Positions 16,317 to 47,105 of a stretch of DNA of 64,000 nt are shown piece after piece. Position 1 is the first letter of the stretch. Each line of letters opens with the position of its first letter. The position numbers and the translations under genes were made by a program. The notes beneath the pieces are model-generated. The model had not been told where the DNA came from. It saw only the letters and a list, made by a program, of their open reading frames with translations, and made no database searches. Location of the stretch: the IMG/VR virus record IMGVR_UViG_3300025013_000002, positions 18,562 through 82,561 of that record; one strand, 5' to 3'. The stretch comes from a virus.

Positions 16317-16673
16317 TCAACCCTCAATAATATCCGAGATCTCCTTCAGCACTTTCTTCCCCTTCGCCGTCAGATAAACCGCGTTCGCCTTTCGGTCATC
16401 TACGTCGGGGCGCTGTGCAACCAACTCGTAACCAGCTTTCGTTTTATTCCCATTGTCGGATTCTACCAGGTAGACCGAAAGTTTTTTGACGTTTCGAGAA
16501 ACGGTACCTTGGGGCCACCCAAGTTTCTCCGCTATTTTCGGTTGCGTGATCCCATCCTGCTCAGCGATTGCCAGTAAAAGCATGACGTGCTGCAGGGGAA
16601 GTTCTGCGAATATTTTTTCCAGCACATGCTGCGCCTTCTTGAACTTCACGAGACCACTTGTTAATCCAGCCAT
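16317..16673 (-). CDS. MarR-like winged HTH regulator
   Basis: LLLAIAEQDGITQPKIAEKLGWPQGTVSRNVKKL...DDRKANAVYLTAKGK. Confidence 0.85.
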   Translation of the reverse strand: MAGLTSGLVKFKKAQHVLEKIFAELPLQHVMLLLAIAEQDGITQPKIAEKLGWPQGTVSRNVKKLSVYLVESDNGNKTKAGYELVAQRPDVDDRKANAVYLTAKGKKVLKEISDIIEG

Positions 16674-16765
16674 TTTGTTTTCCTCCTTGTTTTGGTTTTA
16701 TTTTCTAAGCCAGCAATTCAAATTAGAATTTACATTCGATTGTGAATTGCCTAACTCAAAAATTT

Positions 16766-17122
16766 TTAAGCTGAGGATTCCACGATGGACCTCAACTCCT
16801 TGAAAATCTGCCTTCCTCTAATCGACAGGACCACTTCTCGTTCACGGCGGTTCTCCAAGCTGATTCTCAAATTGATCAGCCCGTAGCCCATTTTCACCGT
16901 CCTCTTGGAATCTATAGCGACCAAATAAGATGGACCCAGCAGCCTCAACATATTTGTTAAGGTGGCTCTGCCCAGCTTAGAAAGGTCCTTCAAATCCGAG
17001 ATTGTGATTCCTTCTTGCTCAGCTACCAGCAAGAATAGGTTTATCAACGAGGACGAAATGCCTTTAAATCTCTCTCCGTACAACTCCTGGAATCGCTCAG
17101 CGTAAGCAGGGTCGAGAGGCAT
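16766..17122 (-). CDS. MarR-like winged HTH regulator (paralog of 16317-16673)
   Basis: LLVAEQEGITISDL...ENRREREVVLSIRGR. The listed TTG start at 17182 is part of a TTGACA -35 box, so ATG 17122 is preferred. Confidence 0.75.
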   Translation of the reverse strand: MPLDPAYAERFQELYGERFKGISSSLINLFLLVAEQEGITISDLKDLSKLGRATLTNMLRLLGPSYLVAIDSKRTVKMGYGLINLRISLENRREREVVLSIRGRQIFKELRSIVESSA

Positions 17123-19898: not shown

Positions 19899-20582
19899 TT
19901 AAACAGGACCAATCCTCACCAAGAGATTCTTGACGCCCTGCGAGGTCCAAACCTTTTTCTTCCTGGGAGTCTGGATTCCTGCTTCGGTCAATTGCTGAGC
20001 CAGCGCCGTTAAAGATGTGATGCCCTGACTCTGAAATTTGAGGATCTCGGGCTTCAACTTCTCGGCTCTGAGATCCGCCTTTGTTCGGTTTTTCAGGGAG
20101 CCTTGGATTCTGCCATCACTGAACTTCTCGGAATCTCTATTCAAGTGGCAGGCCTTGCCCAACTGAACTCCCTTCGCCTTAGCCGCTTTCAGGCCGTTCT
20201 TGGTCCTCTCCCTGATCCTCTCCAGCTCGTACTCAGCTACGCACCCGAGCACGTTCAGGACGAATCTGGAAGCGTTGGGGAAATCGCAGATGATGATCTC
20301 GACTCCGGAATCCAGGATCGCCCCGAGAAACGAGAGGCTTCTGGAGAGACGATCAAGTCTTGCTGTGATCAGCCTGCAGCCGGTCAACTCGCAGTAGTTC
20401 AGGGCCTCCTTCAAGACCGGTCTTGAAGGAGGCCCGCCGGATTCGACTTCTACAAATTCCTTGATGACTACGAGATTGTTCCTAGCAGCATATTCCGCCC
20501 GAATAGTCCTCTGCGCGTCAAGGCCATGCCTTTCCGACTGAGATTTAGTGCTCACCCTATCGTAGCTGACCACGCGCTCCAT
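19899..20582 (-). CDS. Serine recombinase (resolvase/invertase catalytic domain plus C-terminal DNA-binding domain)
   Basis: YDRVST, EVESG, RPVL, RLDRLSRS, AEYE..RIRERTK.GL..AKAKG..LG; ATG at 20582. Confidence 0.93.
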   Translation of the reverse strand: MERVVSYDRVSTKSQSERHGLDAQRTIRAEYAARNNLVVIKEFVEVESGGPPSRPVLKEALNYCELTGCRLITARLDRLSRSLSFLGAILDSGVEIIICDFPNASRFVLNVLGCVAEYELERIRERTKNGLKAAKAKGVQLGKACHLNRDSEKFSDGRIQGSLKNRTKADLRAEKLKPEILKFQSQGITSLTALAQQLTEAGIQTPRKKKVWTSQGVKNLLVRIGPV

Positions 20583-24938: not shown

Positions 24939-25380
24939 TTTGAACCCCCATTTCCTAGATTAACGTGGATTTTAATTCACTTCTGAATTTTTGTCAAGCT
25001 AAAAATCCCAGTTCCTACCCTTGTCCTCGTCCAGGACGAAGAGGATTTCAAGCTCTGCCCCACACTCCGGGCAGTCCTGATCCGCCGAAATGAAGGAGCA
25101 ATCCGAAGCAAGCTCCAGGTTTATATTAACGTAGTACCAATCAATCGCGTGACCGCAGTTAGAGCATTTCATACAACCTCCTGTTTTACTTAGGTTTTAA
25201 GTGGGATTTCACATTTCACTAAATTAAAGAATTATAATAAAAAAAGACTTGACAAACTCTTAGAAATCATGGTATCCTAAAACCGGCGCTAGCCGATGAA
25301 GTATAGATTAATACCCCAATTAACTAGGTAGGGTTTTAGGTACCATTTTGGCTGATAATAGTTGACTAGAAAGGTAGGGA

Positions 25381-28300
25381 TTAAATCTCAAATTCCTTTC
25401 TCGCTGCAGCACCCATCTTGTCCGGATAAACACCCTCCTCGTCCGATATGACCTCCCAGCCATACTCGAACGATGTTAGGTTTTCGTAATCCTCCCTTGG
25501 AGTCTCGGAATTGCCCTCCCAGTCTTCGGTGCCTTCACCCATTCTGAGACGCCCGATGCAGTCGCTTAGGGTATCTTTGTCAAACTCGAATCCGCTGTGG
25601 AAGTAGATGCATTCGCCTGCCTCATTGAAAACTGCCAGATGGAGCCCACCGCCATTGTCCTCGATTGCCTGGAACGTCGTTTTCATTTCTTGCCTCCTTT
25701 AGTTTTAATCCCTCGCTACCGAGTAGCAAACCGATTCCCAGTTGAAGGTTAATTCGAGTTCCATCGCTCCACTTTCCCAGGTCCAGAACTTGAGCTGGAA
25801 TCCTCCGACGCCCAGCCGATTGTATGGCAGATGACCCGGCTCGGCAAGGAGTTCTTTCAGCCTGGAGAACATCGAGCAGCAAGAGGACCTCATCGAGCTG
25901 ATAGTAGGAACCATGTGCCCCGGACCCTCGTTCGCCCAAGTCCAACCATTAATCAGCATCAGGGCTCGCACCTTCTCGAAGTCGAATTTCTCCATGATTT
26001 CTTGGAAGGTTTCTTCAATATTCTGGAGTTGCGCTGCGTTCATGCTAGGCCTCCTCAGCTTTTTTGACTGCCTGCTCTGCGATTACCAGCAGGTCCTCGA
26101 TGGTGTTGGTGCTCATCGGGCCGAAGTGCTTAATACCCGAAAGCCGGTCGTGAATGTCCTTCAGGGCATCCAAGAGAGCAGGGGCCTGGGAGATCAGCCT
26201 GCAATTTGCCTCGTCGATTTCTACTCTCTCCTCTAAGGTCAGCGTGCATTCCTCGTCCTCAGGGTCCAACTCGATCTGCGCCCCGAGTATTTTGTAGTAG
26301 CCGTCTAGGTAGCCAGTCACGTTCCAAGGCCCCTTCGTGTGCTTCGATTCGATTTTCATTTCCTACCCCCAATTATTAGAGAAAAATAATTTAATTTACC
26401 ACTTGACAAATCCCAAAAGTATGGTACACTTAAAATCGCCGCGAGGCAAAAAGGATTATAGTTAATACCCCTACTATCTAGGTAGGGTTTAGCGAGGATT
26501 TGGTTCCTACTAAACCCTACCTTTTTAGTGGGACAATTATTCCTGGGTTAGCCCACCACGTTGAGCCCAATGAAATCCGGCTTAGCCAGCCTCTTTAATT
26601 CGTCATACACTTCCTCCGATCCGAACTCATGGGTGAAAACAGGCCGACCGAAAAGCTCCTCGGCATAAGCGTGCATGTCTGCGAAGTCTCCGAGCATGAA
26701 TCCTGTGTAGGCTGAAACGATTGCTGCTTCCCTTTTGGTCATCTTCAAATCTCCTTTTCCACATCCTCTGTGGATAACTCCTGTTAAATTTGTTAGTAAA
26801 GTTAGGCGCCCTGTGGTAGGGCGCGGTGAATAGCGGATTGCTTAGGATTTGTGCTTGAGCTTGTCGAGGACCGCCTGAGCCTTATAAACGTGGCAAGTGC
26901 AGTAGCGCTCCGGATTAGCGGTACGTTCTCCTCTACACTTGCAGGCAGGGTGATGAATGGAGGCAGCGGAATGCTCAAGCGCAGCCACCATTTCCTCGTG
27001 GTAGTTCAGGGCCAGCGCGATCAACTTGGCTCTCGCTTCGTCTTGCTCCTCAAGACCGTAGGCCAGCTTGTGCACCGTGGTGTTAGTAGTGGCAACCCAG
27101 TCAATCCCGGCTTCCGCAGTCTTGCCAAGCACGGAGTAAACGGTGGTCTTATGCGCTGCTACCGGAAACTTGATGTTGGCTTGCTCGATTAATTCGGCGT
27201 AGGACTTCATGTTATGCCTCCTTTTTGTTCAGATTCAAAACTCCCAGTGTCCGGTCGTAGGTTTTCTGTAGTCCCTCGCCTAGAGGGTGATTCAGCAGGT
27301 GGTGGGCGTATTCGTTCAGGAGGCCCAGCAACTCCTCCCTCTCGTTCACGGCATCGCAGATCGTCTTAGCGATCTCCCTCGTTTCCTCATTCGTCTTGCC
27401 CTGGACCTCCGCGATGACTTCCATGTTATCAGTCAGGATCTGCGTGGAGTCTACGAGGGTCTCGGCTATCATGACGAAATGAAGCGGCATTGAAATGTGA
27501 GATTTCATTTTTTTTTTATTCCTCCTAGTTGAGCAGGCAAGCCTGCAAGAGTTCAACCAAAATTCTGAGTTGTTCAGGGTCGAGGTTCATTTTTGGATCT
27601 CCCCTGTCGAGTAATAAACCTGGCCGTCGATCACGATCTGGTAGCTTTTGAGACCTTCGGCATCGGCCAGTTGCCTCATGTAAGCCTTAATCTGCTCGGT
27701 GCTCGAAATGTTGAACTCTCCACTGAATGGAACCCAGTTGTACTCACCAGGATCTCCGAGTATTTCGACGTAAGCGTAATGCTTGACCATTTGGCACTCT
27801 CCTTTACCTTGTTCTGAGAGCAAGGCACCCTCTTCCGGGGCTGTTTATCCACAAGTGAATGGGAATGTATATGTGAATTTTAGTTTGGCCTTTGTAGGGC
27901 ATCCTCGTTCGATTCAGCCCAAATCCTTTGCAGGTCGAACCTGCTCCTGTACCAAGCCAGATCCTCGATCCTGGTCATGCTGACTCCGGTGGCTTGGTTC
28001 TTCCTCGGTTGATCGTAGACGCAGAGCTTGCCGTCCTCGATCTCGTACCAGCGTTGAGCTTTCATTGATCCTCCCAATCCTGGTACACTTTCCAAAGCGC
28101 CCAGAGTGTAGCTGCTACGATGACGAAGAAGATGAGGTGGATGGTTTGGGTCATTTCGAGCCCTCCTTGGCTTTTCTGATTGCTTCGCGAGCTTTGCGCC
28201 AATCAGATGCTAGAGGCGGGTTGTTCCCGGTGTCCTGCCAGCGCACCAGATTTTCCAACGCCTCCAGCAATTCCGGAGCAGCCGCCATCAAATCCGCATT

Positions 28301-31300
28301 TGCCTGATATTCCTCCTCGTAGCGGTTGTAGACCAAGGCGATGTCGTAATCCCGTTCATCCGAAACGATTCCTTGGCTGTGATCTCCAGCGTGGTTGACT
28401 AGGCGCCAAGGACCTGGGGAAAATTTATTTTTCATTTTGAACTCCTTTTGCTTTGGCTACGACCCGGCGAGCCTCTTCCCAGGATGCTGTGTCAGGTAAG
28501 CCCCAAATCGTGATTAGATCCTCCAGCGCTGCGAGAAGTTCTGGAGCTGCTGAGATCAAGGCACAATTTGCCTCGTCGATTTCCGTTACCTGCTCACTGG
28601 TGAGGTGGGGAAGTACGTCTTCAGGATCGAGTTGAATTTGGGCTCCAAGAATCTTGTAGAATCCGTCCCTGTAGCCCTCCACGTTCCAGGGCATAGGTGT
28701 AAATTTATTGGTGCTCATATCTTCCTCCCAGCCGCTATCAAAATAAAAGCGGCGAATGCTCCGGTTAATGTTAGAAGCTGCAGGGCTCCGATGGTTTGGT
28801 CGAAGAGGGTCATTTTTGGACCTCCAATTCCTTCCTGATCCAAGCCGCGAGGTCATCTGGTCTGCAACCAGCGGAAGGCCAATTTTTGACCATCCGGTCG
28901 AACTCGCGGATCTTCATTTCTTGGTTTTGCTGGATTACTTCGCTCGCTTCCAGACCCATCTCCCTATAAATGTGACTGGCGTTGTCGCCAGTGTTCTTGG
29001 CACTGACGGATTTGTCTGTGGCCAAATCGGTCCAGGTAAAGGCCTAATAGCGGTTGCAGTAGGTGTCCGCTTTGGAATTGTAGATGGTGATTTGGGCTTT
29101 GATTTGTCGGATCATTTTAGGCCTCCTCTTGTTAGTCCCCGCTCGGAAAGTTCTTGCAAACCTGGATGTGCCTGGTCTTAATCTGTTCGTCTGACATGAC
29201 TGCTCTTGGTCCGCGACGGTAAATCTGCAGCGCCAAGTTAAGTGCAGCGCCCCACTGAGATCCAGATAAGCCTAGAGCCTCAATCCGTTTGTTCGCAAAT
29301 CCTGCAGCTTTAATTTCCTTCTGGTTCCTCTGCCAAGTCTCTTGGTCCTCCCAGGCTGAATAGTCGTAGCCCCTCTCAAGCAAATGCCTAAGAATCTCAG
29401 CGGTTGTAATTTGGATAGCTTGCTCGTACCCAGGACCAAACCCTCCCATCGAAATTGACCGGACTGATTTTCCTTTGTCCCATCTGTTCAACCAGTCAGC
29501 AGCATCAGTGCCGTAGATCTCGATCTGGCCGTGCTCTTTGTCCTCTGCTTCGGTGCGATAGAAAACTTTCTTTCCGTCAAGGAACACTCCGCGCACCACA
29601 AAGCCTATCCCACGACCGTAGAATCTTATTTCCATACCTTCCTCTGGAATCACAGGGGAGGAACTAGGGATGAAGAAACCCCACCCGTCATGCTTGGTAA
29701 TCTCCCATCCATTACCTACGGCGTTAACTTTTTTGATTGTGGCTACTTCGAACTGCAAGTCATTTTCCGGGAACATAATTTTTCTCCTTTAAATGTGAAA
29801 TCTCACTTTTCTGGGAGACTCCCGAAGGAGCCTCCCTCCTTCATAACCTACTCCCCGAAGTAGAAGCAGCGGCAGTATTCAAGCACGATCTCTTCCTCCT
29901 CGGAAGTCAATTCAAGAGGTTCCCAAGGAGTGAACCAGTCCTGGTAGAAGATCTCGGCGGACTCGGGCTGGTTCCACTGACCGAGTTCCCCCTCGATCTT
30001 AACCGCAGGTCCTCCGGTGCAGAGTAGGATCTGGAACTCTTCGGCGGAGTGATCCTCCGAGCCGGGGCAATACCAACCCGAGCGGACCTGAACCGAGAGG
30101 GGATCTTCGTTGATACGCTGGCGAGCGTCGTCGGCGTCTTTGCACTCGCCTGCTTCGGCTTCGAGTTCGTCGAGTTCCTCCTGATTTTCTTCTTCCCAAT
30201 CCGAGAGTGCTTTTTCCGCCTCGTCGTTAGCCTCCTTCAATTCGAGGTAGCTGGCAGCCCTGAGGTTGCAGTTGTCCGCGTAATCCTTGAGATCTCTTGC
30301 AGCGGTTGTGAGTGTGTCGCGGAGATCCTTCTTCTCCTCCCTCAACTCCTCCAGCCGATCCCAATCCAAATTCAACGCCGCCACCATTTCCTTAATGGAT
30401 TCAAACTGCGCTCGGGCCTGGTCTTTCGCTCTTTCGTTGTCGTTGCTCATTTTGTTGCCTCCTTGTTTAGGAAATGTGAAATCTCACTTTCCTATTGTTA
30501 GAGAAAAATAATGGATATACTCAAAGATTTTACTTGACACGGGGCCAGCACTCGTGGTATAATGCGGCTACTTTTCCGAAAGGAAAATAATATATAGTAC
30601 TTATATAGCCACGATTTAAGCCTCCCTGATTCCCTCCTCTTCCTGCTCTAGCAGACACTCCGGACAAATGCAACCTGGATTTTTGGTTGTTTGGTGGAAA
30701 TGCCTGTCGCATAGGACGCATTCGGTGGTCATTGGTGGGCCTCCTTATCCCTGATAAATTTTCCCGTCGTCTCCGACGTACAAGTCCACTTCCCCGAATC
30801 GCTTAGAAGAAGATGTCAGCCGCTCGCCAGCATCTTTAGGCCAATCCCCATCCCAGAATCCACAGCCGTGTCCGTTCCGGGTGAGCCAGAAGTCGTGTCC
30901 TGCCTTGGTGAAATCCAGGCCGATGTCCTCCCAATTCTCGTTGATGAAGCGGGCGCAGTCCTCGTCCATTTTTTGAAACGTCTCTGGCGCGAGGTCTGAG
31001 ATTCCGTAGTTGTAGTCGAGCGGAATGTCCTGGTCGTCTGTGGAAGACCACAGCGTGGCCTCAATATAAGCCGTTAGAAATTCGTTGATCGAGGGGATCT
31101 CCTCCGCATTAGGGAAGATCTCTTTGAATTTCATCCTAGCCTCATTCCAATCAGCAGCCCTCAAAAATGCCGCCTGCTCCTCGTCGTCTCCATCTCCCCA
31201 GGCTACGAAGAGAGGTTCACCACAGCCCCAGTAAGCACCGCCTGGGTCGTACCCCTCGTGGAGCGGGACCTGCTCGATGTTGATCCGAGTGACGGAATCG

Positions 31301-34300
31301 GCTTCCTGGAGCGAGTCAGGTCGGCCCATTTGGGCTCCAGCAGTTGAATATGCTTTCGTGTAGTTGAATTTCATTTCATCCTCCGAAATGTTGTATAGCT
31401 TTGTCCGTTCGCATAGCAGCGATGCGAGACAGCGCCGGTAATGTCATCCCCGCACTTAGGGCAGCAGGCTTTATAGGGAGGCTTCGGTACCTCAACGAAG
31501 GAATTTTCGTGGGCGTACCCTGTGTACTCCCGCCCACAGTAGGAGCAACTTAGTTCTACTGTGACCCCACTGCCCAGGATCACTTTGTCCTCCCGAAGAG
31601 GCATTCCGCATTTGCAGGTCATGGATTTAGTCCTCCCCTAGTATGGCGAATCGAGTCCTGCTCCCTGCCAAGTAGGTCCCACAGCAGTCGCAGTCACTCG
31701 TAGAGAATTCGTCTTCTCCGTGCTCTCTTTCACTGAGTTCCGCGCTGGAGCAATGAGGGCAACCAGGGACTTCTTCGGGCTCGCTGCAGTCGGAGCACTC
31801 CAGCCCTTCCTCTACTTGCCAAGTGCATCCTTCGCAGTCCGGGTTTTTCACCTTGATCAAGTTGCTCTCCAGCAGGTACTCTCCGCAGTCGTAGCAGGTG
31901 AACTCCTTTTCGTCGGTGCAGTCTAAGACTAGGTGAGGGCCTAGATCCGCCAGTCCTCTGTCGATAGCTTCGATCTTGGCGTCAAGCTCCTTCCCATCCA
32001 GGTAATAACCCAAGCCAGAGTAATCGGCGTTGACTGCTACCATCGTGCAGTCGGCGCAGAGCCAGATGTCGCGGTGAAGAACTTTCATTTCATCCTCCAA
32101 AAAAAATGTGAGATTTCACTTAGTAGCCAAGCGTCTCTTCCTCGTCGCCGCCCAAGCACGCTTCTTCGCGCTCGTCCTCTTCCTCCTGGTATTCGCGCTC
32201 CTTCTCGGCAGCATCTTCTGCCAACGAATCGGCAGCGTAGGCCGCGCTAACTTCGTCGTCGTAGATGTGGTCCGTCTCGACGGAAGTAGCCATGCCTTCA
32301 CCCATCGACCAGCCCACGATAAAACCTCTGTCGTGGTTAAGCCGGATCACGATTCCTCGGATTTTATCGCTGTCGCCGTACTCGTCGGTGTACCAGCCGG
32401 TGTGCCCAATCGAGGCGTCCGCCACCTCATCGCACCATTTCCAGCGGTGGATAGGATTCGAGAAGTCGCTGTCGAGGTAGCAGGAGAACCCATCGGCGTT
32501 AGGCGTCGGCGCCGAGTAATAACCTCCGGTGTGCTTGTATCGCTCCTGGCGCTGCTTCTTGGTTCCCTTCGGTAACTCACTCAGGTATTTAGGGAAATTG
32601 AATCCGGCGAAGGTGAATTCCGTTTCAAGCTTGCGTTGGCGTCCTTTTAACATGGGGTGCCTCCTTAAATGTGAATATTCACTTCTGAATTGATTAGCGC
32701 CAAACCTGGAGGTCAAATTTTGAATCCTCCGGGAACCTCTGCTTCATTTTTTGAACTGCCTCTTCCTCCGAAGCGGCGTCGATGTAATACCCTTGTCTTG
32801 CTGAAGGATCTTTGTGTCCGGGGCATCCTGGCTCGTAAAGATCGGGACGGGTTAGGCGGAATTGAGGCATGGTTTAGTCCTCCTTCTGGGTGCTCAGTTT
32901 GTCAAGTGCTGCACCCCACTTTGTGAGCCTGTCCTCTTCAACTTTGAGGGATGCCCGCTGCCTTTCGATGCTCTCAGCAGCACTTTTGATTTCTGCCTGA
33001 GCCTCAACCAGAGCGGATTCCAGGTCAGGGTGGTACATATCAACTCCACAGCGAGCAACCCTACCGTCGCCATATCGAATCTTGAGGGAGGGTAACCTGC
33101 ATCCCGGCAAAATGCCCTCTTCAAGTACGGTTATCGTTTCAATCGAGATGGTACCATTGTCGTTAAAATGGATGTCATAGCGTTTCATCTTGTCCTCCCT
33201 CGTAAAATGTGATATTTCACTTTTTGCTTCGTTCACTCAACTCATCGACCGCCAGAATATTGCTGAAGTAATCCCCTTCGTTCCCTGCGGAGGAATACTT
33301 CTCGTTCACGAAATCATCCTCCTCAAATCCCTGCTCCAGAGCGTCCTTCCTGAGTTCCTCGATATAATCCGGATCTGCGAAGTAGCCTTTGTACCCCTTG
33401 TCCTTGCAGTAGTCGGCTATGGCGTCGTGGCAGGCGCCTAGATCCGAGTTCCCGTGAATCAAAAATCCTGCCGAGACATAGCAGCCGGTGTCGAGCCAGA
33501 TGATGTAGGTATTGGGCCAGAAGTGCTTGTCTGAAGGATTCACGTAGTCGATGGATTTGCGGCACTCCCGGAGCCACTTGGCGAATTCAGTTCGTTCCAT
33601 TTCCTACCTCCTAAAAAATGTGAGATTTCACTTTTTACTACCTAAACATCCAGCTACACATCACCAAGCCGCAGACAGCAACCAAACAAACCAAGATCCT
33701 CCCTACGGCGGCTTCAGTTTCCCTTTTCTGTTCGAATTGGGCTCTCTGTTTGAGGACGGTGGTGGAGACGTAGTTCACGAAACCACCTCCACTCTCTCCA
33801 TCCTGAGATCGACCCAAGCCAATCCATCGTTAAACTGCACCAGGACCATATCCGCCAATTCTTCAAGGCAGTGACCAATTCCGGTTCCGATTACGTAAAC
33901 TTTTTGATTTTTCATTTTGTGGCTCCTTTTCCCGTAAAATGTGAGAATTCACTTTTCCATCAAGATTCACTTCTGAATACCTTAAGCCACCAAAATCCTC
34001 ACCACGTAAGGATGGCCGTAGTTCATGAACCAGTCCCAGGTCGTTTTGATCCTTCTTGTCTTGCCTGATTTAGTTCTGACTTCGCAGATGATCGTCATGG
34101 CTTAGTCCTCCTTTTCTGGCGCCGTATTGCGCGCATCGCAGATTTCCCATTCATTCAAGCTTTCGTCCACCACATGGACCATCTCAGCGACAGCCACCCT
34201 TTTCCCGCAGGAGTCGCAGGCTCTCATCGTGGGGTCCTCTAAATACATCCCTTCCCCACAACAAGGGCAGCGCTCGCCGTTGTCTTCGATTTCCCCTCGC

Positions 34301-36341
34301 TTAGACTTTTGCTCACAATCGGGGCACTTTATTTCCTCGCCTCTAGCCTCCCGTTCGATTTCATGCTCGATGTACTCTTCTGCCAGGGTCTCGGAGCGAA
34401 ATGCGGAAACGTGGCCATACCTACCAAGCAACTCGTTCCACCTCTCGACAGCTACCCAGCCAATCCCGGTTTGCCCTGCAGGCACAATTCTGTAAAATGG
34501 GATTTTGATGAATTTCATTTTGTGGCTCCTTTCGTAAAATGTGAAGTTTCACTTTTTACCTTTCAGCCATTCCCTAATCCGAATCATCCCCTCGCTGCTA
34601 ATCTGCCAGACCGGAACTCCACCATCCAGATAAAGGCCCCTCTCTTGGTCGCCTTCCATTAAAGTGCTTAGGTAGTACCTGGACACGAACTGACCGAAGT
34701 CCGTATGATCGTAACGGCAGTCATAGAATTCGACCGTCGGATCATCTTGGTCGTGCTCCAGGCAGAAATTGAGTCCGTATTTATCACCTTTTTGTACGAT
34801 CCGGACGAGCCAGATCATTCCTTGGTCGTTGAATATTTTGATCATTTTTGAGCCCTCCTACCGCACCATTTTCGATGAAGAAGTTGTTCGGGTACTTCAG
34901 CTCCAGGCAGTAGACGATGGTTTCCAGTGGGAATCCTCTGTTGACCAGTTGCTGCACGTAGGCTTGCCAAGGCAGTTTCATTTTTAACCTCCTTCTGACC
35001 GCAGGTTTCCTCAGGTTGATTGCTTCGCAGGAGAACATGAGGAAACCTGCGGTCCAACTATCAAGCTACTCAGCCCACATTACCAGATCCGAGAAAAGAC
35101 CCTCGGCCTCTGGGAGTTCCCACAGCCCGTCTTTGTTCCTGGAGGCTATTATCGTGTCTCCGTCAGGTCCGCTCCTCAGTTCTCCGTAGGTTATTTGCAT
35201 GTAATCCGAGAAGGGGCCTAAGTCCTCACTCATGGTCGAGGTAGCAACATTTTCACCGCGTACATAGTAATTCATTTTATTCTCCTTTTGGTTGATGGTG
35301 GTTGAACTCGGTCGATTCAAATAAATGTGAAATTTCACTTTTACGAAAACCTCAGTAAGATAGCCGTCGCCCAAACAACTCCGAGCCAAACTATAGGTGC
35401 CATCATATCGTCCCTCCGTGCTTTCGGATAATCTCCCGGACAACTTCCAGAGGGACGTATGAATAAACGGGAGAACCTTCGTAGGTATGATAAGGAGCCA
35501 AAAGTTCTTCTGGTTTGTTAGGGAACCCAACCTCGACATCCGAGTACAAAGCGAGCTTGAAGAAGTCCATTGTCTTAGGACAACAAGCGTGACGATCGCT
35601 TGCCTGGACACTCATCATAAACCCGTCTTTGCACACGATCTGAGGGAATAAAACTCCCTGGGTCCTTGTGGGAAGTTTGATTTCAATTTTGGTGGACATT
35701 TGGATCTCCTTTGTAATTACGGGCTATTTCCGAAATGGGCGGATAGGGATGAGGGGAAAGAACTTTATAAAACCTTTGTCTTGGCGTTTATAGCGGGTTT
35801 GGATCTTTTCGTCAAGCATTTTAATTCACATGTGTATTTAAATTGGAATGTGAAACCTCACTTTTATGGTTTATTTGACGGGCGAATCAGGTAAACTACG
35901 CAAACTTTGCATAGCTGGTGTAAAACCTTATTAAATACGCAGGTTTAGTCAGGTTTCTAGCGGAGCTTGGATATTGAGTTATGCCTGCGGTGGATTAGGG
36001 AGGATGCAGGATCAGTCAATTTTCCAGCGAAGCTTTAATCATGAGGAAACCTGCGGTTGAATTGGGAGCTTCGCAGGTTTCCTCAATTTTAATGCGAAGC
36101 TGGTTGGCTTGAGGCGGACTGCGAGGTATTAAAGCACTTCTTTCTCCGTGACGAAGTATTCGCGCTCGAAACCTTCGGGAGCGTTGATCTGCCATTCCTG
36201 GCCTTTGGCGTGCGCCTTTTCGCTGGAGGAAAAGAGGAAGGTTTCAACCCAGCGATCATCCGAGTAGGGCTCAAGGGTGTCTTCAATCTGCGCGAGTTCA
36301 TAGACGATCATTTTAATTTCTCCTTTTTCTCGTTTCCCCAA
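25381..36341 (-). CDS. Array of roughly 25 small, often acidic, early or host-takeover type genes (e.g. 25381-25686, 25705-26043, 29132-29776, 29848-30450, 30745-31374, 31627-32100, 32120-32653, 33217-33600, 34102-34518, 34549-34845, 35403-35699)
   Basis: Each gene has a strong RBS. Widespread phage/plasmid motifs include LLCTGGPA, AGHDFWLTRNGHGCGFWD, GYDPGGAYWG and GQFVSRYYLSTL. Confidence 0.7.
26045..26359 (-). CDS. 'HTPGPW...ANARLIAAAPELL' family protein, copy 1
   Basis: KHTKGPWNV...EANCRLISQAPALLDAL. Confidence 0.7.
   Translation of the reverse strand: MKIESKHTKGPWNVTGYLDGYYKILGAQIELDPEDEECTLTLEERVEIDEANCRLISQAPALLDALKDIHDRLSGIKHFGPMSTNTIEDLLVIAEQAVKKAEEA
28151..28435 (-). CDS. 'HTPGPW...ANARLIAAAPELL' family protein, copy 2
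   Basis: KFSPGPWRL...ANADLMAAAPELLEAL. Confidence 0.7.
   Translation of the reverse strand: MKNKFSPGPWRLVNHAGDHSQGIVSDERDYDIALVYNRYEEEYQANADLMAAAPELLEALENLVRWQDTGNNPPLASDWRKAREAIRKAKEGSK
28425..28718 (-). CDS. 'HTPGPW...ANARLIAAAPELL' family protein, copy 3
   Basis: KFTPMPWNV...EANCALISAAPELLAAL; ATG at 28718. Confidence 0.7.
   Translation of the reverse strand: MSTNKFTPMPWNVEGYRDGFYKILGAQIQLDPEDVLPHLTSEQVTEIDEANCALISAAPELLAALEDLITIWGLPDTASWEEARRVVAKAKGVQNEK
34997..35054. repeat. Hairpin element family C, copy with perfect 17-bp arms
   Basis: GACCGCAGGTTTCCTCA-N8-GCTTCGC-N9-TGAGGAAACCTGCGGTC. Confidence 0.9.
35939..36122. repeat. Three degenerate family C units in tandem, period 67 bp
   Basis: Units start at 35939, 36006 and 36073; each is GCAGG-N5-TCA-N8-GCG(G/A)AGC-N8/9-TGA...CTGC. 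Confidence 0.8.
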
Positions 36342-36415
36342 GTTCCAACGCGTTTCCCTTCCTAGATCAAAAAGGATATACGCGCCGGTCCTGGGGGTTT
36401 TTAGGTAGTTCGTTT

Positions 36416-36445
36416 AGGCGCTATGTGAAATTTCACATAGCGCCT
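36416..36445. repeat. Perfect 30-bp palindrome centred on a family B site
   Basis: AGGCGCTATGTGAAATTTCACATAGCGCCT. Confidence 0.95.
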
Positions 36446-36617
36446 CTCAAGGTCGAGCTACGATCCGCGCCCTGGACCTGCAGGGCACCTCTTTTGCTCC
36501 ATCTAAAGACTGCGAACATCCGTTTGCAGAGTTTAGAAAATGTGAAATATCACTTTTATTTGTTCCATTATGTAACACATCCTGGATGAAATGTGAATTT
36601 TCATATTTTCTAAATAG

Positions 36618-36653
36618 AGCGGGACCGGCTCGATGCTTTGGGCCGGTCCCGCT
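36618..36653. terminator. GC-rich 12-bp stem-loop, probable terminator
   Basis: AGCGGGACCGGC-N12-GCCGGTCCCGCT. Confidence 0.65.
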
Positions 36654-37110
36654 TTGTTGCCTCAAAAATGTGAACTTCACATTTTTAATGAGCTTTTCTT
36701 TAACCAGTGAACCGATTGCCTCATGCCTCGCCTTTCTTATCAGCGACACAACTATTAGCAGGACGGTCAGTATCTGGCGTTTAAACGGCCCTTCTGTTTA
36801 GATGTATGGTAGCACCTCCCCCGCTTCTTATCTCTCGACTATAAGGGGATATTCCGCCTTTCCAATCTGTTACCTTGTACCGTCAGGCAGACTCCCATAG
36901 TTGGGGCCTCTGTCTGCAGTCATTTGGATTGATACAAGTCAAGGATCGAACGCGCTAAATCTTGTGCTGATCCTGTCGGCAATAGGTGACAGGTTCTAAG
37001 GTTTCGTGCCCTATAGCGGGACACTACTTTCTCCGTTTGGCATTTTGCTAGAATGCCTGTACAGGTGTCAAGCTGTACACGTCATGCCTCAATAGTCTCA
37101 ATGAGCGGGG
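36618..37110 (-). ncRNA. Candidate large structured non-coding RNA
   Basis: No credible ORF; dense consecutive helices; G-U wobbles form only on the minus strand; potential pseudoknot. Confidence 0.45.
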
Positions 37111-37118
37111 AAATGATA

Positions 37119-37179
37119 CAAGGGTCTTGCTCTGTAGCTTCTAGATCCTACACCTAGAAGCTACAGAGCAAGACCCTTG
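37119..37179. repeat. Perfect 26-bp inverted repeat with 9-nt loop
   Basis: CAAGGGTCTTGCTCTGTAGCTTCTAG atcctacac CTAGAAGCTACAGAGCAAGACCCTTG. Confidence 0.95.
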
Positions 37180-37204
37180 CCGGTTAGGGCAAGGGCCTTT
37201 GGCG

Positions 37205-37639
37205 CTAGGCAGAGGCACCGGCCTTTTTAGCCTCTTTCATGGCTTTTTCCAGAGCTGCGAAAAGCCCCTCATTCCCTGCACATTTCGTCATGACGGCCTT
37301 AACGTAGCTGTCAACGTTGAACTCTTTGGTGCAGTTGGAGTTATCACCGCTGTTCCTGATGAAGTCATACAGCCTCTTGAGGAAGCGCCCACACTCGCCT
37401 TTGTCCTGAATAGCCTCGGTGTATTTCTCGGGAACGTCGCGGCCAGCCTGCAGCATGGCGTTGTGTACCGTGTGAACGTAGCCGGTTGCCTTTTCCGGCA
37501 CGCCGAAGTGCGTTTCGATGGTGGAGATGGTATCCATCATGCGGGTCTGTTGCGAGGCGTAGGCTTTGCTCTCTGCGTCAACGGTTTTCAGAATGGCGGT
37601 TCTAGCTTTGATACCCATGGACTCGATTTGCTTTTTCAT
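37205..37639 (-). CDS. Hypothetical protein, first gene of the leftward arm
   Basis: ATG 37639 with AAGGGG RBS, downstream of a sigma70-like promoter. Confidence 0.7.
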   Translation of the reverse strand: MKKQIESMGIKARTAILKTVDAESKAYASQQTRMMDTISTIETHFGVPEKATGYVHTVHNAMLQAGRDVPEKYTEAIQDKGECGRFLKRLYDFIRNSGDNSNCTKEFNVDSYVKAVMTKCAGNEGLFAALEKAMKEAKKAGASA

Positions 37640-37723
37640 GATATACCCCTTTGGCCTATGGCCGGTTGTGGTGCAAGGCACCGTGTATGCTTCCCAGGTG
37701 AGCCGTTCGTTCATGTTGATACA

Positions 37724-37752
37724 GTTATAACAGCTACCTTGTTTCAAGTCAA
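37724..37752 (-). promoter_or_regulatory. Leftward sigma70-like promoter
   Basis: TTGACT-17-TATAAC with AT-rich upstream region. Confidence 0.7.
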
Positions 37753-37831
37753 CACTATTTTTCACATTTATTTTAAAATAATTATTCTTGTGTAAAACAA
37801 GGTACTTAGGCTGTTAATTCATATTAGGTAG

Positions 37832-37939
37832 CTCCCCTCGGTCGATCCCTACGACCTCCCCTCGGTCGATCCCTACGACCTCCCCTCGGTCGATCCCTAC
37901 GACCTCCCCTCGGTCGATCCCTACGACCTCCCCTCGGTC
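37832..37939. repeat. Tandem repeat, 4.5 x 24 bp
   Basis: CTCCCCTCGGTCGATCCCTACGAC at 37832, 37856, 37880 and 37904, plus a 12-bp partial copy. Confidence 0.97.
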
Positions 37940-38034
37940 ACTGGGGGCGGGGTGAAAGTTTTAATGAGAGCCAGGCTCCCTTACCCATTCACACACACGC
38001 TACGAGTTAAAATTCAGATGTACATACTTTTATC

Positions 38035-38063
38035 TTGACACGTAGCGAGTAAAGTGTTAAGGT
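38035..38063 (+). promoter_or_regulatory. Rightward sigma70-like promoter
   Basis: TTGACA-17-TAAGGT upstream of the AAGGAG RBS of 38094. Confidence 0.65.
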
Positions 38064-38093
38064 TCAATACAGGCAAAACAAAGGAGAAATAAA

Positions 38094-38420
38094 ATGGAAC
38101 GAGTAAAAATTGGAGATAAATTTCACGCTTGGACAGTGATAGCAGGCCCCATCATGAAGGGCAAAGGTCTCAAGTATTGGACATGCCAATGTGCTTGTGG
38201 GACTCAGAAGGAGATCCAGCAGTACTCCCTACTGAATGACCGCACCCATAGTTGTGGGTGCCAGAAGGTTTTCTCCGAGGAAACTAGAAAGCTCCTGTCC
38301 GAACTCAGGAAACAGCGGCCCGCCCCAAGAGCTAAGGGGTTCACCCAGACTGAAGAGACGAGGGCGAAGATAAGCCAGGGTGCCAAACAAAGGTGGGAGG
38401 AGAGGAAGGCGCAGCCATGA
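38094..38420 (+). CDS. DNA-binding protein built from homing-endonuclease-associated modules (Cys motif plus two NUMOD3 motifs), no nuclease domain seen
   Basis: YWTCQCACG...SCGC; FSEETRKLLSE; TEETRAKISQ. Confidence 0.7.
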   Translation: MERVKIGDKFHAWTVIAGPIMKGKGLKYWTCQCACGTQKEIQQYSLLNDRTHSCGCQKVFSEETRKLLSELRKQRPAPRAKGFTQTEETRAKISQGAKQRWEERKAQP

Positions 38421-38470
38421 CCCTACCCTACCTGCTTCGCACTGTTACCAGGGGTTCTACTCAAATTAGC

Positions 38471-38533
38471 CCACAGGGTTCCTCAATCCAGCCTGCTTCG
38501 CACTGATCCTGACCGGTACCTGTGGTCCAACTA
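38471..38533. repeat. Degenerate family C hairpin element
   Basis: CCACAGGGTTCCTCA-N9-GCTTCGC-N8-TGA...ACCTGTGG, followed by the same TCCAACTA as the 34997 copy. Confidence 0.7.
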
Positions 38534-39483: not shown

Positions 39484-39598
39484 CTAAGCCGTGCTCTTGT
39501 GGTCCCAGTAACGTTAAGCAAAATTTACAAAACCTACCTGAAATGTAAATTTTATTTTACGATAGCCACTTTAAAATTCACGCAGCGAAGCGAAGTGC

Positions 39599-39648
39599 AT
39601 TCACATCTGAATTTTTCTCTTGACAAATATTCAGAAGTGAATTACGAT
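39599..39648 (+). promoter_or_regulatory. Sigma70-like promoter with two family A operators
   Basis: TTGACA(39620)-17-TACGAT; one operator upstream of the -35 and one filling the spacer. Confidence 0.75.
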
Positions 39649-45371: not shown

Positions 45372-46610
45372 TTATTCAAATTGCTCCCCAAATTTATCTG
45401 CGTCCTTCCTCTTTTGCTCCCTATCGACGAACGCATATTTCCTCGACATGTTGATGTCGCTGTGATCGAGGAAATCTGCGGTCTTCCTGATGTCCTGCGT
45501 AGCTTGGTAGTAGAAGGTCCCGGCTGAGTGCTTGGTGTCGTGGAAGCGCTTGTCTTCGAGCCCTGCTTCCTTTTTGACCTTCTGGAAAATGTTGTCCCAG
45601 TAGGATCTGGAGATGGGCACTTCCGGAGTCTCACCGCAGAAGAGCCAAGGGCTTTCCTGCTCCTTCTTGGTTAGCCCCTCTAGGTAGGAATCCAGCAGGC
45701 TCCTGAGCTTTGGGATCATGTCCAGATAATGTGTGTAGTCGCCCTGCTTCCTTTTGCTTGCTGGGATGGATACGAGATTTTCCTGGAGGTTCAGGTATTC
45801 CTTTTTTAATGAGCATATGGTTTTCCTCCTGAGCCCACCGAACGCGCCCATCCCTATAATGAGTGGAGCCCTCTTGTCTACCAGCTCCGCTGCTTCCAGA
45901 AGCCTATTCAATTCACCCACCGTGTAAAATTTATCCTCCCTGGAATCGTTCTCGGGCCAAGCAGGTACCACCTGAAGCTGATTGTATTCGAGGTACCGCG
46001 TGTTGTCTGGAGCTACGATCTTGGATTTCACGAAGCAGTTGATCATGTTGATGAGGGTGGTCCTGGCCCGGTTCACAGTCGAGTTCGAGTGACCTAGATC
46101 ATCCCGGCAGTAGACCATGTATGCTTGGAGGTGCTGCGGGAGTAGATCCTGAATGAAAACTGGGAGCCGGTCTGATAACTGGCGTGGCAAGGGCTTGTCG
46201 GTCTTCCAGGAGAACTCTCGGAAGAAGGGAGTCAGGTTTCGGTCTAGGCGTTGGAGGTAGAAGGCTCGTGTGTCGGCGTTGGAGAGCCCTTCGAGGTGGG
46301 TTTTGTAAAGCTCTGCGGCTCGATCCCAGGTCAATTTTTCCCGCTTCTGGTTCAGCTTGAAGCGGTCGTCCACGATCTGACCCAGGACCTGGTTAAGCCG
46401 ATCCTCGGCTTGTTTCTTGTGGATGCTGATCTGCTCCGCGATCTGCTTCCCATCGAAGGAGTAGGAGATGCTCCAGAATTTATCAGCCTCGTTTGTGGTG
46501 CTTCCACACTTTTTGCACGGAGGCATCTTCTTGGGAGGATCGGTGAAGCGCTTCCTGGCCCCACACTCGTAGCATCGGACCACCTTGAAAATCGAACCCT
46601 TTTCTCGCAT
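45372..46610 (-). CDS. int: Tyrosine integrase
   Basis: GGLRRKTI (catalytic R); RFHDTKHS (HxxR variant); LDHSDINMSRKY (H/Y); adjacent tRNA fragment. Confidence 0.92.
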   Translation of the reverse strand: MREKGSIFKVVRCYECGARKRFTDPPKKMPPCKKCGSTTNEADKFWSISYSFDGKQIAEQISIHKKQAEDRLNQVLGQIVDDRFKLNQKREKLTWDRAAELYKTHLEGLSNADTRAFYLQRLDRNLTPFFREFSWKTDKPLPRQLSDRLPVFIQDLLPQHLQAYMVYCRDDLGHSNSTVNRARTTLINMINCFVKSKIVAPDNTRYLEYNQLQVVPAWPENDSREDKFYTVGELNRLLEAAELVDKRAPLIIGMGAFGGLRRKTICSLKKEYLNLQENLVSIPASKRKQGDYTHYLDMIPKLRSLLDSYLEGLTKKEQESPWLFCGETPEVPISRSYWDNIFQKVKKEAGLEDKRFHDTKHSAGTFYYQATQDIRKTADFLDHSDINMSRKYAFVDREQKRKDADKFGEQFE

Positions 46611-46659: not shown

Positions 46660-46941
46660 GCCCTTCGCTGCAATATTTGAGCAATAATTGAAATTTCCTG
46701 ACTCTTCCCGATTAGGGCTAAGTGGTGGGATTTGGTAATTTTATTTTATGTATTAGGTAGTTATAAATTCAGACGTGATTTTAAATGCTGGATGTGATTT
46801 AAGGAAGTCTTTATGGATTAGGTAGTTGTGAGATTTGAGGCTTTTTAGTTGATATAGCAAAGGCCCTCTTGGTTAAGGAGAGCCTAGTTATAACTAGCTG
46901 ATTCTATTGTACAAATAGGTGCATGCAAATAATTCACTTGT

Positions 46942-46980: not shown

Positions 46981-46998
46981 ATTTCAACTACTTACGAG

Positions 46999-47028: not shown

Positions 47029-47105
47029 TTTTTGAATCCGGAATGCTGCTAAAGAAAATGCCCTGTCTCGCGTCAGGTGGACCGCAAGATAGGGCATTTT
47101 GAAAT

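What the first reader, a model, noticed from the sequence alone, without database searches (positions are those of the whole stretch)
27493..36684. Early genes arranged as cassettes delimited by a polar 20-bp palindrome, AAATGTGA-N4-TCACTTTT
Seen: about 15 copies confined to 25-37 kb, nearly all in the same orientation. They usually lie between the stop of one gene and the RBS of the next (29791, 30472, 32104, 32667, 33205, 33616, 33937, 34537). The arms are conserved, the 4-nt centre varies, and the T/A asymmetry is constant. Two leaders (33911-33956 and 34515-34556) are near-identical through RBS and start codon. Several copies cluster upstream of the array at 36.4-36.7 kb, one extended to a perfect 30-bp palindrome. 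The half-site (GTGAA/TTCAC) is the same as family A but in the opposite arrangement, and the two families overlap at 32667-32691. Inference: a possibly undescribed gene-cassette system. The sites could drive recombination or shuffling of accessory genes, act as per-gene mRNA processing or translation hairpins (AAAAGUGA-N4-UCACAUUU), or form a second operator class.
Basis: partly seen in the sequence, partly recalled or inferred. Interest (0 to 1): 0.82.

Follow-up and report, generated by a model that had tools for sequence, protein, structure and literature searches.

The report
Polar palindrome between phage early genes
A 20-base near-palindrome that sits in front of about a dozen early genes of an uncultured groundwater phage is real and is most likely a docking site for a phage DNA-binding regulator: a known kind of phage control element, here in a direction-sensitive form.

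Summary
The motif reads AAAAGTGA-N4-TCACATTT on the coding (-) strand. It gives 26 matches at 14 places against 0.52 expected. All 11 near-exact copies in the 82.5-kb virus record lie in window 27.5-36.6 kb and share one orientation. Four related IMG/VR records carry the same array.

Best reading (about 0.5): a DNA operator for a dimeric phage regulator, repeated inside the immediate-early operon in the manner of stoperators.
- The conservation is dyad-symmetric and there is no covariation.
- The RNA hairpin would be weak, -3 to -4.4 kcal/mol.
- The commoner arm change is the one that breaks RNA pairing.
- B-like sites also lie upstream of a conserved sigma-70 promoter.
- The phage encodes two tandem MarR-like paralogues, but no binder is shown.

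The cassette idea is only partly supported. Units between motifs differ among phages whose portal proteins are 96-97% identical, and some indels end inside the motif. But gene order breaks about as often at junctions without the motif: 33/39 against 15/21, p=0.31.

The closest analogues are mycobacteriophage stoperators, ESAS and Cluster O repeats, and T4 PeSLs. This scan has reported similar intergenic palindromes in other phages. I rate it a new variant of a known kind.

The parts
36664..36686 (-). B0: 23-bp perfect odd palindrome (ATGTGA-N3-TCACAT type), just upstream of a GC-rich hairpin at the head of the early arm
   Evidence: The relative L025 has an ordinary N4 copy at the same place.
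36589..36608 (-). B1: AAATATGA-AAAT-TCACATTT, first of a pair of sites 51 bp apart
   Evidence: The same 51-bp pair is present in L025 (6360/6411) and L026 (8288/8339).
36538..36557 (-). B2: AAAAGTGA-TATT-TCACATTT, second site of the 51-bp pair, about 200 nt upstream of the first early gene
36416..36445 (.). Perfect 30-bp palindrome built around the B core (ATGTGAAATTTCACAT). It is specific to this phage.
   Evidence: It is absent from the copy lists of the relatives. As RNA it folds at -14 kcal/mol, unlike the array copies.
35846..35865 (-). B site upstream of a conserved sigma-70-type promoter, centred about 75 bp upstream of the expected start. An A-like site lies between it and the -35 box.
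   Evidence: The relatives have near-symmetric AAATGTGG-N4-TCACATT at the same place.
35787..35815 (-). Promoter-like TTGACG-N17-TATAAA in front of gene 35403-35699, conserved in L025 and L026
   Evidence: This is a consensus match only; no transcript data exist.
35323..35342 (-). B copy after the stop of 35403-35699, 37 nt before the SD of 35066-35275
34537..34556 (-). B copy next to the SD. The TGA of its left arm is the stop codon of 34549-34845.
33937..33956 (-). B copy next to the SD. An A-like site lies 8 nt upstream (33964-33979).
33616..33635 (-). B copy next to the SD, in front of gene 33217-33600
   Evidence: The gene it precedes is missing in L073, and the joint lies in this motif.
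33205..33224 (-). B copy next to the SD. It contains the stop codon of 33217-33600.
32667..32686 (-). B copy overlapping a family A site (32676-32691). This composite is conserved in all four phages.
32104..32123 (-). B copy next to the SD
30472..30491 (-). B copy next to the SD, in front of gene 29848-30450
29791..29810 (-). Last clean B copy of the array, in front of gene 29132-29776
27493..27512 (-). Degenerate copy (AAAAATGA...). Its ATG is the predicted start of gene 27212-27508.
25197..25216 (-). B-like site with 3 mismatches and reversed polarity (its perfect half is upstream), 14 nt after a TATAAT. It is conserved in G001.
16317..16673 (-). MarR-like winged-helix protein (118 aa). It is a candidate binder of family A or B; this is inferred only.
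   Evidence: MarR_2, E=4e-9. Two A-like sites lie just upstream. It is conserved in G001.
16766..17122 (-). Second MarR-like paralogue (118 aa), in tandem with the first. It is a candidate binder; this is inferred only.
   Evidence: 30% identity over 89 aa, E=7e-14. The Pfam MarR match is weak (0.0053). Its own TTGACA-N17-TATTCT promoter carries a degenerate A-like site.

Best explanation
The motif is a DNA operator, a docking site for a dimeric, sequence-specific DNA-binding protein that is probably phage-encoded. This protein controls the leftward immediate-early operon. A few near-symmetric copies lie in the control region at the head of the operon and upstream of an internal promoter. About ten further copies fill every non-overlapping gap between translationally coupled gene blocks.

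Inferred step: when the regulator is present it occupies all these sites and shuts the early operon down, by blocking initiation at the head and by acting as roadblocks inside the operon. This would be a dimeric counterpart of the mycobacteriophage operator/stoperator arrangement.

The intra-operon copies are systematically imperfect in the half that RNA polymerase meets first (AAGTGA instead of ATGTGA), and this gives the site its polarity.

Secondary effect: the 20 conserved bases plus the SD offer short homology at which related phages sometimes exchange early gene blocks.

Shown: the sites, their symmetry, polarity, placement and conservation in relatives. Inferred: protein binding, the identity of the binder, and the roadblock action.
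For: 1. The motif is far beyond chance and confined to the early arm in one orientation. The same array is present in four related virus records and two metagenome contigs.
2. Over 44 distinct copies from four phages the conservation is dyad-symmetric. TGA/TCA are invariant, the A-tract mirrors the T-tract, and the centre is R-W-W-Y.
3. The asymmetric 12-bp core flips between orthologous copies (AATC against GATT) while the flanks stay put.
4. The centre never has the weaker variant GTGAG in both halves: 0 of 44 copies, P=0.0003 given the margins.
5. The RNA hairpin is not supported. Three of 8 stem pairs never vary. Pair 4 is unpaired in 35 of 41 copies. Pair 5 is broken in 8 copies and turned to G-U in 2. 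The covariation score is not above the slid controls. Fold energy is -3 to -4.4 kcal/mol for 10 of the 11 copies from 36538 to 29791; the 30472 copy reaches -7.6, and the degenerate 36589 and 27493 copies fold at -1.3 and -1.6.
6. Sites also occur where no SD follows. There is a pair exactly 51 bp apart in three phages. A site is conserved about 75 bp upstream of the start of a conserved TTGAC-N17-TATAAA promoter.
7. The symmetric T at position -1 is found in 6 of 15 such sites but in only 1 of 29 SD-adjacent sites (p=0.004, with two rows reclassified by hand).
8. The sister family A has the same 6-N4-6 design. It sits inside promoter spacers and 6-7 nt upstream of -35 boxes, which is DNA-level placement. 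It also sits directly before SD sequences, as B does.
9. The phage has no RNA polymerase that Pfam recognises. It does encode two tandem MarR-like paralogues with A-like sites at their own promoter, a double-HTH protein, and a GerE/sigma-r4-like HTH protein.
Against: - No binder is identified.
- No B copy overlaps the core of a confident promoter. The 51-bp pair flanks only a poor -35/-10 match.
- Strict polarity and SD adjacency (29 of 44 copies) are not required by a simple dimer-operator model. They are what an RNA-level element would show.
- The copies are related by descent within and between phages, so all the p-values above are optimistic.
- The roadblock action is an analogy with Cluster A phages, whose repressor is a monomer on an asymmetric site.
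Confidence: 0.5

Rival explanations
1. RNA-level element. The transcribed motif forms a small hairpin, or a single-stranded recognition sequence, just 5' of the SD. There it is bound by a translational repressor or cut by an endoribonuclease, giving per-block control of translation or mRNA stability (RegA/RegB-like logic).
For: - All copies are in the sense orientation.
- 29 of 44 copies end 0-22 nt before an SD.
- The motif marks exactly the junctions where translation must start independently. Motif-free junctions are mostly overlapping or at most 14 nt apart, 20 of 25.
- The asymmetry is specific to SD-adjacent copies.
Against: - There is no covariation, and the stem is interrupted by a constant A.A mismatch.
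- G>A in the 5' arm breaks pairing and occurs 9 times, against 3 neutral C>U changes.
- The core flips orientation between orthologues, which changes the loop sequence.
- Fold energy is only -3 to -4.4 kcal/mol, and the hairpin is often lost in longer context.
- Copies exist far from any SD.
- Family A, of the same design, sits in promoter spacers.
Confidence: 0.2
2. Recombination linker as the primary function. The motif exists to promote exchange of early accessory gene blocks between co-infecting relatives, by short-homology or site-specific recombination (PeSL-like or attC-like).
For: - The early array is mosaic (73-92% nucleotide identity with replaced genes), while portal proteins are 96-97% identical.
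- Clean indels have both ends in the motif. One is the gene 33217-33600 unit (window against L073). Another is a 700-bp block between two copies in G001.
- Contigs of co-occurring relatives join at or next to B at 29786, 32101, 33612-33614, 33957 and 34536.
Against: - Breaks of gene order are about as frequent at junctions without the motif: 15 of 21 against 33 of 39, p=0.31.
- Blocks also differ internally, for example the gene before 32694-32870.
- The dyad symmetry and invariant core exceed what homology alone needs.
- The only tyrosine integrase lies 9 kb away (about 8.7 kb from the nearest copy) with its own attP, and the serine recombinase is 9 kb (9.2 kb) downstream.
- Joints seen in contigs are expected wherever a conserved repeat borders unlike sequence.
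Confidence: 0.1
3. Promoter or promoter element for a non-standard polymerase or sigma factor (T7-like or N4-like hairpin promoter, or a middle-promoter activator box), giving each block its own transcript.
For: The element is oriented, about 20 bp long and conserved, lies directly upstream of SD sequences and is palindromic like N4 early promoters (the N4 comparison is recalled, not tested). A sigma-r4-like protein is encoded at 48258-48659.
Against: - Pfam found no phage RNA polymerase among 30 larger proteins scanned here and in G001.
- There is no conserved -10-like element downstream of the motif.
- Ordinary TTGACA-N17-TATAAT promoters are used elsewhere in the genome.
- Some leaders would be only a few nucleotides long.
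Confidence: 0.07

Closest known systems
Operators and stoperators of Cluster A mycobacteriophages (L5, TipsytheTRex); passages read in PMC9283540
   Same: - Many copies of one repressor-type site.
- Sites lie both near promoters and in short intergenic gaps inside operons.
- Orientation is tied to the direction of transcription.
- Stop codons often lie within the site.
   Different: - Stoperators are 13-bp asymmetric sites read by a monomer with two DNA-binding domains. This motif is a 20-bp dyad with one weakened half.
- Stoperators are spread over the whole genome. This motif is confined to about 9 kb.
- No homologous repressor was found here.
Extended start-associated sequences (ESAS/SAS) of Cluster K mycobacteriophages; passages read in PMC3203893
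   Same: - Imperfect inverted repeats lie immediately upstream of the ribosome binding site of non-structural genes.
- They are in one orientation.
- One arm is closer to consensus than the other.
- Departures do not support RNA pairing, so a DNA-binding protein is suspected.
- The function is unknown.
   Different: - ESAS arms are 17 bp with a variable 4-13 bp spacer and are tied to a 13-bp SAS. Here the arms are 8 bp, the spacer is fixed at 4 bp, and there is no universal SAS.
- Only a subset of copies here shares AAGGAGCCACAAAATG.
- The host and phage lineage are unrelated.
17-bp dyad repeats of Cluster O mycobacteriophages (TGTTCGG-N3-CCGAACA); passages read in PMC4351075
   Same: - More than 30 invariant palindromic copies, mostly at gene junctions.
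- The binder is unknown.
- A gene indel flanked by a 17-bp direct repeat, a separate sequence from the dyad palindrome, is reported.
   Different: - The Cluster O repeats are genome-wide and show no meaningful orientation.
- This motif is polar, limited to early genes, and coexists with a second, genome-wide family (A).
PeSL (promoter-early stem-loop) cassettes of T4-type phages; abstract and outline read in PMC2839356
   Same: - Short conserved intergenic elements lie in a hyperplastic region rich in ORFans.
- Indels and replacements between close relatives end at the elements.
   Different: - PeSLs are a strong sigma-70 promoter plus a terminator stem-loop. This motif holds neither.
- Mini-circles were shown for PeSLs and could not be tested here.

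Membership tests
Cluster A stoperator system | 13-bp asymmetric site read by a monomeric repressor | tested here: not met
   The site is a 20-bp dyad with mirror-image conservation. The feature is taken from passages of PMC9283540.
Cluster A stoperator system | Sites both at promoters and in short intergenic gaps | tested here: met
   29 of 44 copies lie in gaps just before an SD. Others lie in the leader and upstream of a conserved promoter.
Cluster A stoperator system | Orientation correlates with the direction of transcription | tested here: met
   11 forward and 0 reverse matches in the whole record. 37 of 44 copies are asymmetric in the same sense and none in the opposite sense.
Cluster A stoperator system | Sites distributed throughout the genome | tested here: not met
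   All copies lie in window 25-37 kb. In G001 they lie only at 99.3-102.3 kb, whereas family A has 36 sites genome-wide.
Cluster A stoperator system | Bound repressor halts elongation in an orientation-dependent way | not testable with these tools
   This needs reporter assays with the binder.
Cluster K ESAS/SAS | Imperfect inverted repeat immediately upstream of the RBS, in one orientation, in non-structural genes | tested here: met
Cluster K ESAS/SAS | 17-bp arms, variable 4-13 bp spacer, linked to the 13-bp SAS GGGATAGGAGCCC | tested here: not met
   Here the arms are 8 bp, the spacer is fixed at 4 bp, and the SD regions vary. The feature is taken from PMC3203893.
T4-type PeSL | Contains a strong sigma-70 early promoter | tested here: not met
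   The promoter scan of 27-39.5 kb found 9 sites against 9.5 expected. Only two weak 9/12 matches use the motif's TTCACA as a -35 box.
T4-type PeSL | Contains a stem-loop that terminates transcription | tested here: not met
   No terminator-like hit falls at any copy. The hairpin is -3 to -4.4 kcal/mol.
T4-type PeSL | Recombination between copies causes the indels between relatives | tested here: inconclusive
   Some indels end in the motif. Breaks are not enriched there: 33/39 against 15/21, p=0.31.
Integron attC cassette array | Adjacent IntI integrase with attI and Pc; attC sites of 55-140 bp with paired core sites (recalled definition) | tested here: not met
   The sites are 20 bp. The only tyrosine recombinase is at 45372-46610, 9 kb away (about 8.7 kb from the nearest copy) beyond the divergent region. 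Blocks hold 1-5 genes.
CRP/FNR-type operator (TGTGA-N6-TCACA, recalled) | 6-bp spacing between the TGTGA and TCACA half-sites | tested here: not met
   The spacing is 4 bp in 12 of 12 clean copies.
MarR-family regulator with pseudo-palindromic operator | Winged-helix dimer encoded by the element and binding the site | not testable with these tools
   Two MarR-like paralogues are present. A-like sites, but no B sites, lie at their promoter. Binding to B is a guess.

The most novel reading that the evidence does not exclude
This phage lineage runs a two-tier polar operator code. Two paralogous MarR-type dimers each read their own palindrome family: A across the whole genome and B only in the immediate-early operon. 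Both families share the GTGAAWT half-site. In both, the half-site that RNA polymerase meets first is deliberately weakened by one base. That would turn a symmetric dimer into a direction-sensitive roadblock placed in front of each independently translated gene block. It would be a dimeric, independently evolved counterpart of stoperators. The same sites would also serve as 20-bp linkers for swapping early ORFan blocks.
Probability: 0.15. Interest if true: 0.7.

Novelty: new variant of a known kind. Interest (0 to 1): 0.45.

Why it matters
Dispersed intergenic palindromes keep turning up in uncultured phages, and for most of them neither the binder nor the level of action (DNA or RNA) is known.

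This case adds three usable facts.
- The site is polar through a single constant defect in the upstream half.
- Polarity is specific to the copies that sit before ribosome binding sites.
- The site coexists with a second family of the same design that clearly sits in promoters.

Together with two tandem MarR-like paralogues, this gives a small, concrete set of gel-shift and reporter experiments. These could settle how a symmetric dimer site can act directionally inside an operon.

The case also shows, with a control, that ends of homology falling at a repeat do not by themselves prove that the repeat drives gene shuffling.

Tried and rejected
Searches that gave nothing useful.
- Similar DNA in the annotated phage collection: no match.
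- Rfam at gathering threshold and tRNA scan of the window: nothing.
- RNA evidence: no RNA holder is listed for window 29000-37500. All 10 runs are DNA from groundwater or sediment.
- Contigs of four DNA runs laid on 27000-38200. They show co-occurring relatives with joints at or near B and at other places. They cannot show RNA ends or circles, and the joints that run backwards are read as relatives laid on the other strand.
- Host search. The large terminase found nothing in genome contigs. The host stays unknown.
Only L044, L073 and L124 are relatives.
- The perfectly symmetric version of the motif has only single chance hits in viral contigs.
- The portal search in viral contigs found only the same close group, so no motif-free relative was available for gene-by-gene profiling.
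- Literal motif strings in the paper library: nothing relevant. The phiC31 CIR search returned one unrelated paper.

Candidate binder fam5 (37205-37636, with its own promoter and hairpin).
- No Pfam or PHROG hit.
- Six homologues only.
- Atlas hits are all 'hypothetical protein' at 0.86 or below.
- PDB profile hits all have E>0.3.
- It stays uncharacterised.

Other ideas dropped.
- Avoidance of ATG as the cause of the asymmetry. The ATATGA and AAATGA variants still contain ATG, and family A tolerates ATG in the sense strand.
- Sigma-70 promoter within B. No consistent -10 element follows it.
- One search aligned the wrong strand of L027 and is void. One search replaces it.
- I did not run complex prediction. 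A MarR dimer would pass by likeness to solved structures and would not bear on DNA binding.

Supplementary files of the papers were not opened.
Full report
WHAT THE WINDOW IS. The window is bases 18562-82561 of an 82.5-kb IMG/VR virus record, estimated 73% complete. It comes from groundwater or sediment metagenomes. It is a siphovirus-type temperate phage.
- Genes for terminase, portal, prohead protease and tape measure run rightward from about 48 kb.
- A tyrosine integrase lies at 45372-46610.
- A long leftward arm runs from about 37.6 kb to the left end. It holds DnaB-like and SF2 helicases, RtcB, DNA polymerase A, ThyX, a serine recombinase and many ORFans.
- GC skew flips near 38 kb.
- Nothing similar is in the annotated phage collection.
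- None of the 20 early proteins scanned has a Pfam family above the curated cut-off.

- The pattern gives 26 matches at 14 places against 0.52 expected.
- With up to one mismatch, the whole record has 11 forward matches, none reverse, and none for the back-to-front control.
- All 12 GTGA-N4-TCAC cores lie between 29795 and 36553.
- The genes are on the - strand, so the sense form is AAAAGTGA-N4-TCACATTT.
- In the array it fills the gap between a stop codon (often its own TGA) and the next Shine-Dalgarno sequence (SD).
- The two near-identical leaders, the 30-bp palindrome at 36416-36445 and the 23-bp palindrome at 36664-36686 are confirmed.
- Family A (AATTCA-N4-TGAATT) is also real: 32 matches against 3.4 expected.

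RELATIVES.
- A motif scan of IMG/VR found 16 stretches. Four records carry arrays of 5-11 sites within 7 kb or less (G001, G002, G003, G005). The rest are single chance hits.
- G005, the metagenome contig behind L044, and G001 overlap at 100% identity, so they are one phage. L073 and L124 are further relatives.
- Portal proteins of these phages are 96-97% identical to the window's. The early array aligns only in patches of 73-92% identity, with many genes replaced.
- The array is therefore a hyperplastic region in otherwise near-identical phages.

ANATOMY OF THE ARRAY.
- With a simple gene caller, the motif separates blocks of 1-5 genes.
- Of 53 gene junctions in the arrays of three phages, 28 carry the motif and 25 do not.
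- 26 of the 28 motif junctions have gaps of 18-429 nt. 20 of the 25 motif-free junctions overlap or are at most 14 nt apart.
- The motif therefore marks the places where translation has to start afresh.

DNA OR RNA? I aligned 44 distinct copies from four phages.
- Conservation is mirror-symmetric. TGA/TCA are invariant, the A-tract mirrors the T-tract, and the centre reads R-W-W-Y.
- The one asymmetry is at the inner edge of the left arm. The right half is TCACAT in 41 of 44 copies. The left half is almost never the mirror ATGTGA (2 of 44); instead it is AAGTGA, ATATGA or AAATGA.
- The hairpin structure was counted on the alignment. Three pairs never vary, pair 4 is unpaired in 35 of 41 distinct rows, and pair 5 is broken in 8 rows and G-U in 2.
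- The only double changes are 3 cells in the outer A-U pairs. The covariation score (0.075) is matched by the slid controls (0.079 and 0.086).
- G>A in the 5' arm, which breaks pairing, occurs 9 times. C>T in the 3' arm, which keeps G-U, occurs 3 times.
- The asymmetric core flips (AATC against GATT) between orthologous copies.
- The centre never pairs two weak GTGAG halves: 0 of 44, P=0.0003 given the margins.
- Array copies fold at only -3 to -4.4 kcal/mol, with one at -7.6. The hairpin is often lost in 70-nt context.
- These points favour a sequence-specific dimer on DNA over an RNA hairpin. The copies share descent, so the p-values are optimistic.

SITES AWAY FROM RIBOSOME BINDING SITES.
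- Two sites exactly 51 bp apart stand at the head of the arm in three phages.
- A further site precedes a GC-rich hairpin.
- A site is conserved about 75 bp upstream of the expected start of a TTGAC-N17-TATAAA promoter, which is itself conserved in three phages. An A-like site lies between them.
- A reversed-polarity B-like site follows a TATAAT at 25197 and in G001.
- The symmetric T at position -1 is present in 6 of 15 such sites but in only 1 of 29 SD-adjacent sites, p=0.004. I moved two leader rows that the script had mislabelled.
- The polarity is thus a property of the intra-operon copies.

FAMILY A AS A GUIDE.
- A has the same 6-N4-6 design and shares the GTGAAWT half.
- It lies 6-7 nt upstream of -35 boxes and inside -35/-10 spacers of consensus promoters. 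It also lies directly before SD sequences all over the genome. G001 has 36 A sites.
- Most A copies also have one imperfect half upstream in the sense strand (AATTCAG...GTGAATT).
- A therefore behaves as a classical operator that is also placed inside operons. B looks like a second, early-specific set of the same kind.

CANDIDATE BINDERS.
- Pfam recognised no phage RNA polymerase.
- A screen of 89 further proteins found two tandem MarR-like proteins, at 16317-16673 and 16766-17122. They are 30% identical, E=7e-14.
- This pair has its own TTGACA-N17-TATTCT promoter carrying a degenerate A-like site. Two A-like sites lie between the two genes.
- Both paralogues are kept in G001 with nearly unchanged recognition helices.
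- A double-HTH protein (14124-14516) and a GerE/sigma-r4-like protein (48258-48659) are further candidates.
- fam5 (37205-37636), a stand-alone gene next to the control region, has no recognisable family.
- Which protein, if any, binds B is not shown.

THE CASSETTE IDEA.
- Several indels end in the motif. L073 lacks the 33217-33600 gene, and the two flanking alignments overlap in the motif. G001 has an extra 700-bp block between two copies. Many homology blocks stop within 0-20 nt of a copy.
- Contigs of co-occurring relatives show joints at 29786, 32101, 33612-33614, 33957 and 34536. They also show joints at places without the motif.
- However, gene order is broken at 33 of 39 informative motif junctions and at 15 of 21 informative motif-free junctions, Fisher p=0.31. 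With the partial L073 included the figures are 50/62 and 36/44.
- The gene calls and families are crude, and the test has little power.
- My reading is that mosaicism works at single-gene resolution everywhere in this region. The motif may help exchange by short homology, but it is neither required for it nor evidently built for it.
- It is not an attC-like system. The sites are 20 bp, the blocks hold several genes, and no integrase is adjacent.

COMPARISON WITH KNOWN SYSTEMS.
- Stoperators share the placement and polarity but are asymmetric monomer sites spread genome-wide.
- ESAS of Cluster K phages are the nearest in placement and in the argument against RNA pairing. Their function is still open in the 2011 paper I read.
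- Cluster O repeats are unoriented.
- PeSLs carry a promoter and a terminator.
- Earlier notes of this scan describe similar private palindromes in other uncultured phages.
- I therefore class this as a new variant of a known kind. Its particular features are the single-base polarity, the restriction to SD-adjacent copies, and the paired A/B families.

Noticed in passing
window 16317-17122 (-): Two tandem MarR-like winged-helix paralogues of 118 aa each (30% identity). They have their own TTGACA-N17-TATTCT promoter at about 17180-17150. Two adjacent A-like sites lie between the genes (16715-16748). This layout suggests autoregulation.
   Followed up: partly
whole window, for example 6070, 10126, 11947, 24974, 39598-39643, 42541, 48166-48260, 59787: Family A (AATTCAS-WW-STGAATT) occurs in two settings. 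It lies 6-7 nt upstream of, or inside the spacer of, TTGACA promoters, and it lies directly before SD sequences. Most copies read AATTCAGAWGTGAATT on the sense strand, so this family is polar too. G001 has 36 sites.
   Followed up: partly
window 37835-37945: Five head-to-tail copies of a 24-bp unit (gaccgaggggaggtcgtagggatc) lie between the divergent arms. They look like iterons and may mark an origin.
   Followed up: no
window 36620-37200 (-): About 550 nt without an ORF lies between a 26-bp-stem hairpin after gene 37205-37636 and a GC-rich hairpin at 36618-36652. It is preceded by TTGACA-N18-CAAAAT (37071-37042) and is conserved at 73-81% in two relatives. Rfam has no match. It may be a long leader or a non-coding RNA.
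   Followed up: no
window 30534-30563 (+): A perfect TTGACA-18-TATAAT with an upstream TG lies on the strand antisense to the early genes, in a 125-nt gap that the relative L025 lacks.
   Followed up: no
window 34997-35055, 35939-36100, 38431-38500, 39420: A second repeat family of long hairpins (ccgcaggtttcctcat...gaggaaacctgcg) lies in the same region. Contigs of relatives also join at 34998 and 35053-35055.
   Followed up: no
window 33911-33956, 34515-34556; L073 254-300 and 1049-1095: A subset of copies is followed by the same translation start region, AAGGAGCCACAAAATGA, in front of unrelated genes. This suggests that leaders are copied together with the motif.
   Followed up: partly
G001 46736-48631 (L268), 87767-89794 (L270): The relative encodes an anaerobic ribonucleotide reductase (NrdD), which points to an anaerobic or facultative host. 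Its RtcB ORF is twice as long (676 aa).
   Followed up: no
window 19899-20582 (-): A small serine recombinase (Resolvase domain, E=9e-25) is present in addition to the tyrosine integrase. It is 89% identical in G001 and G002.
   Followed up: no
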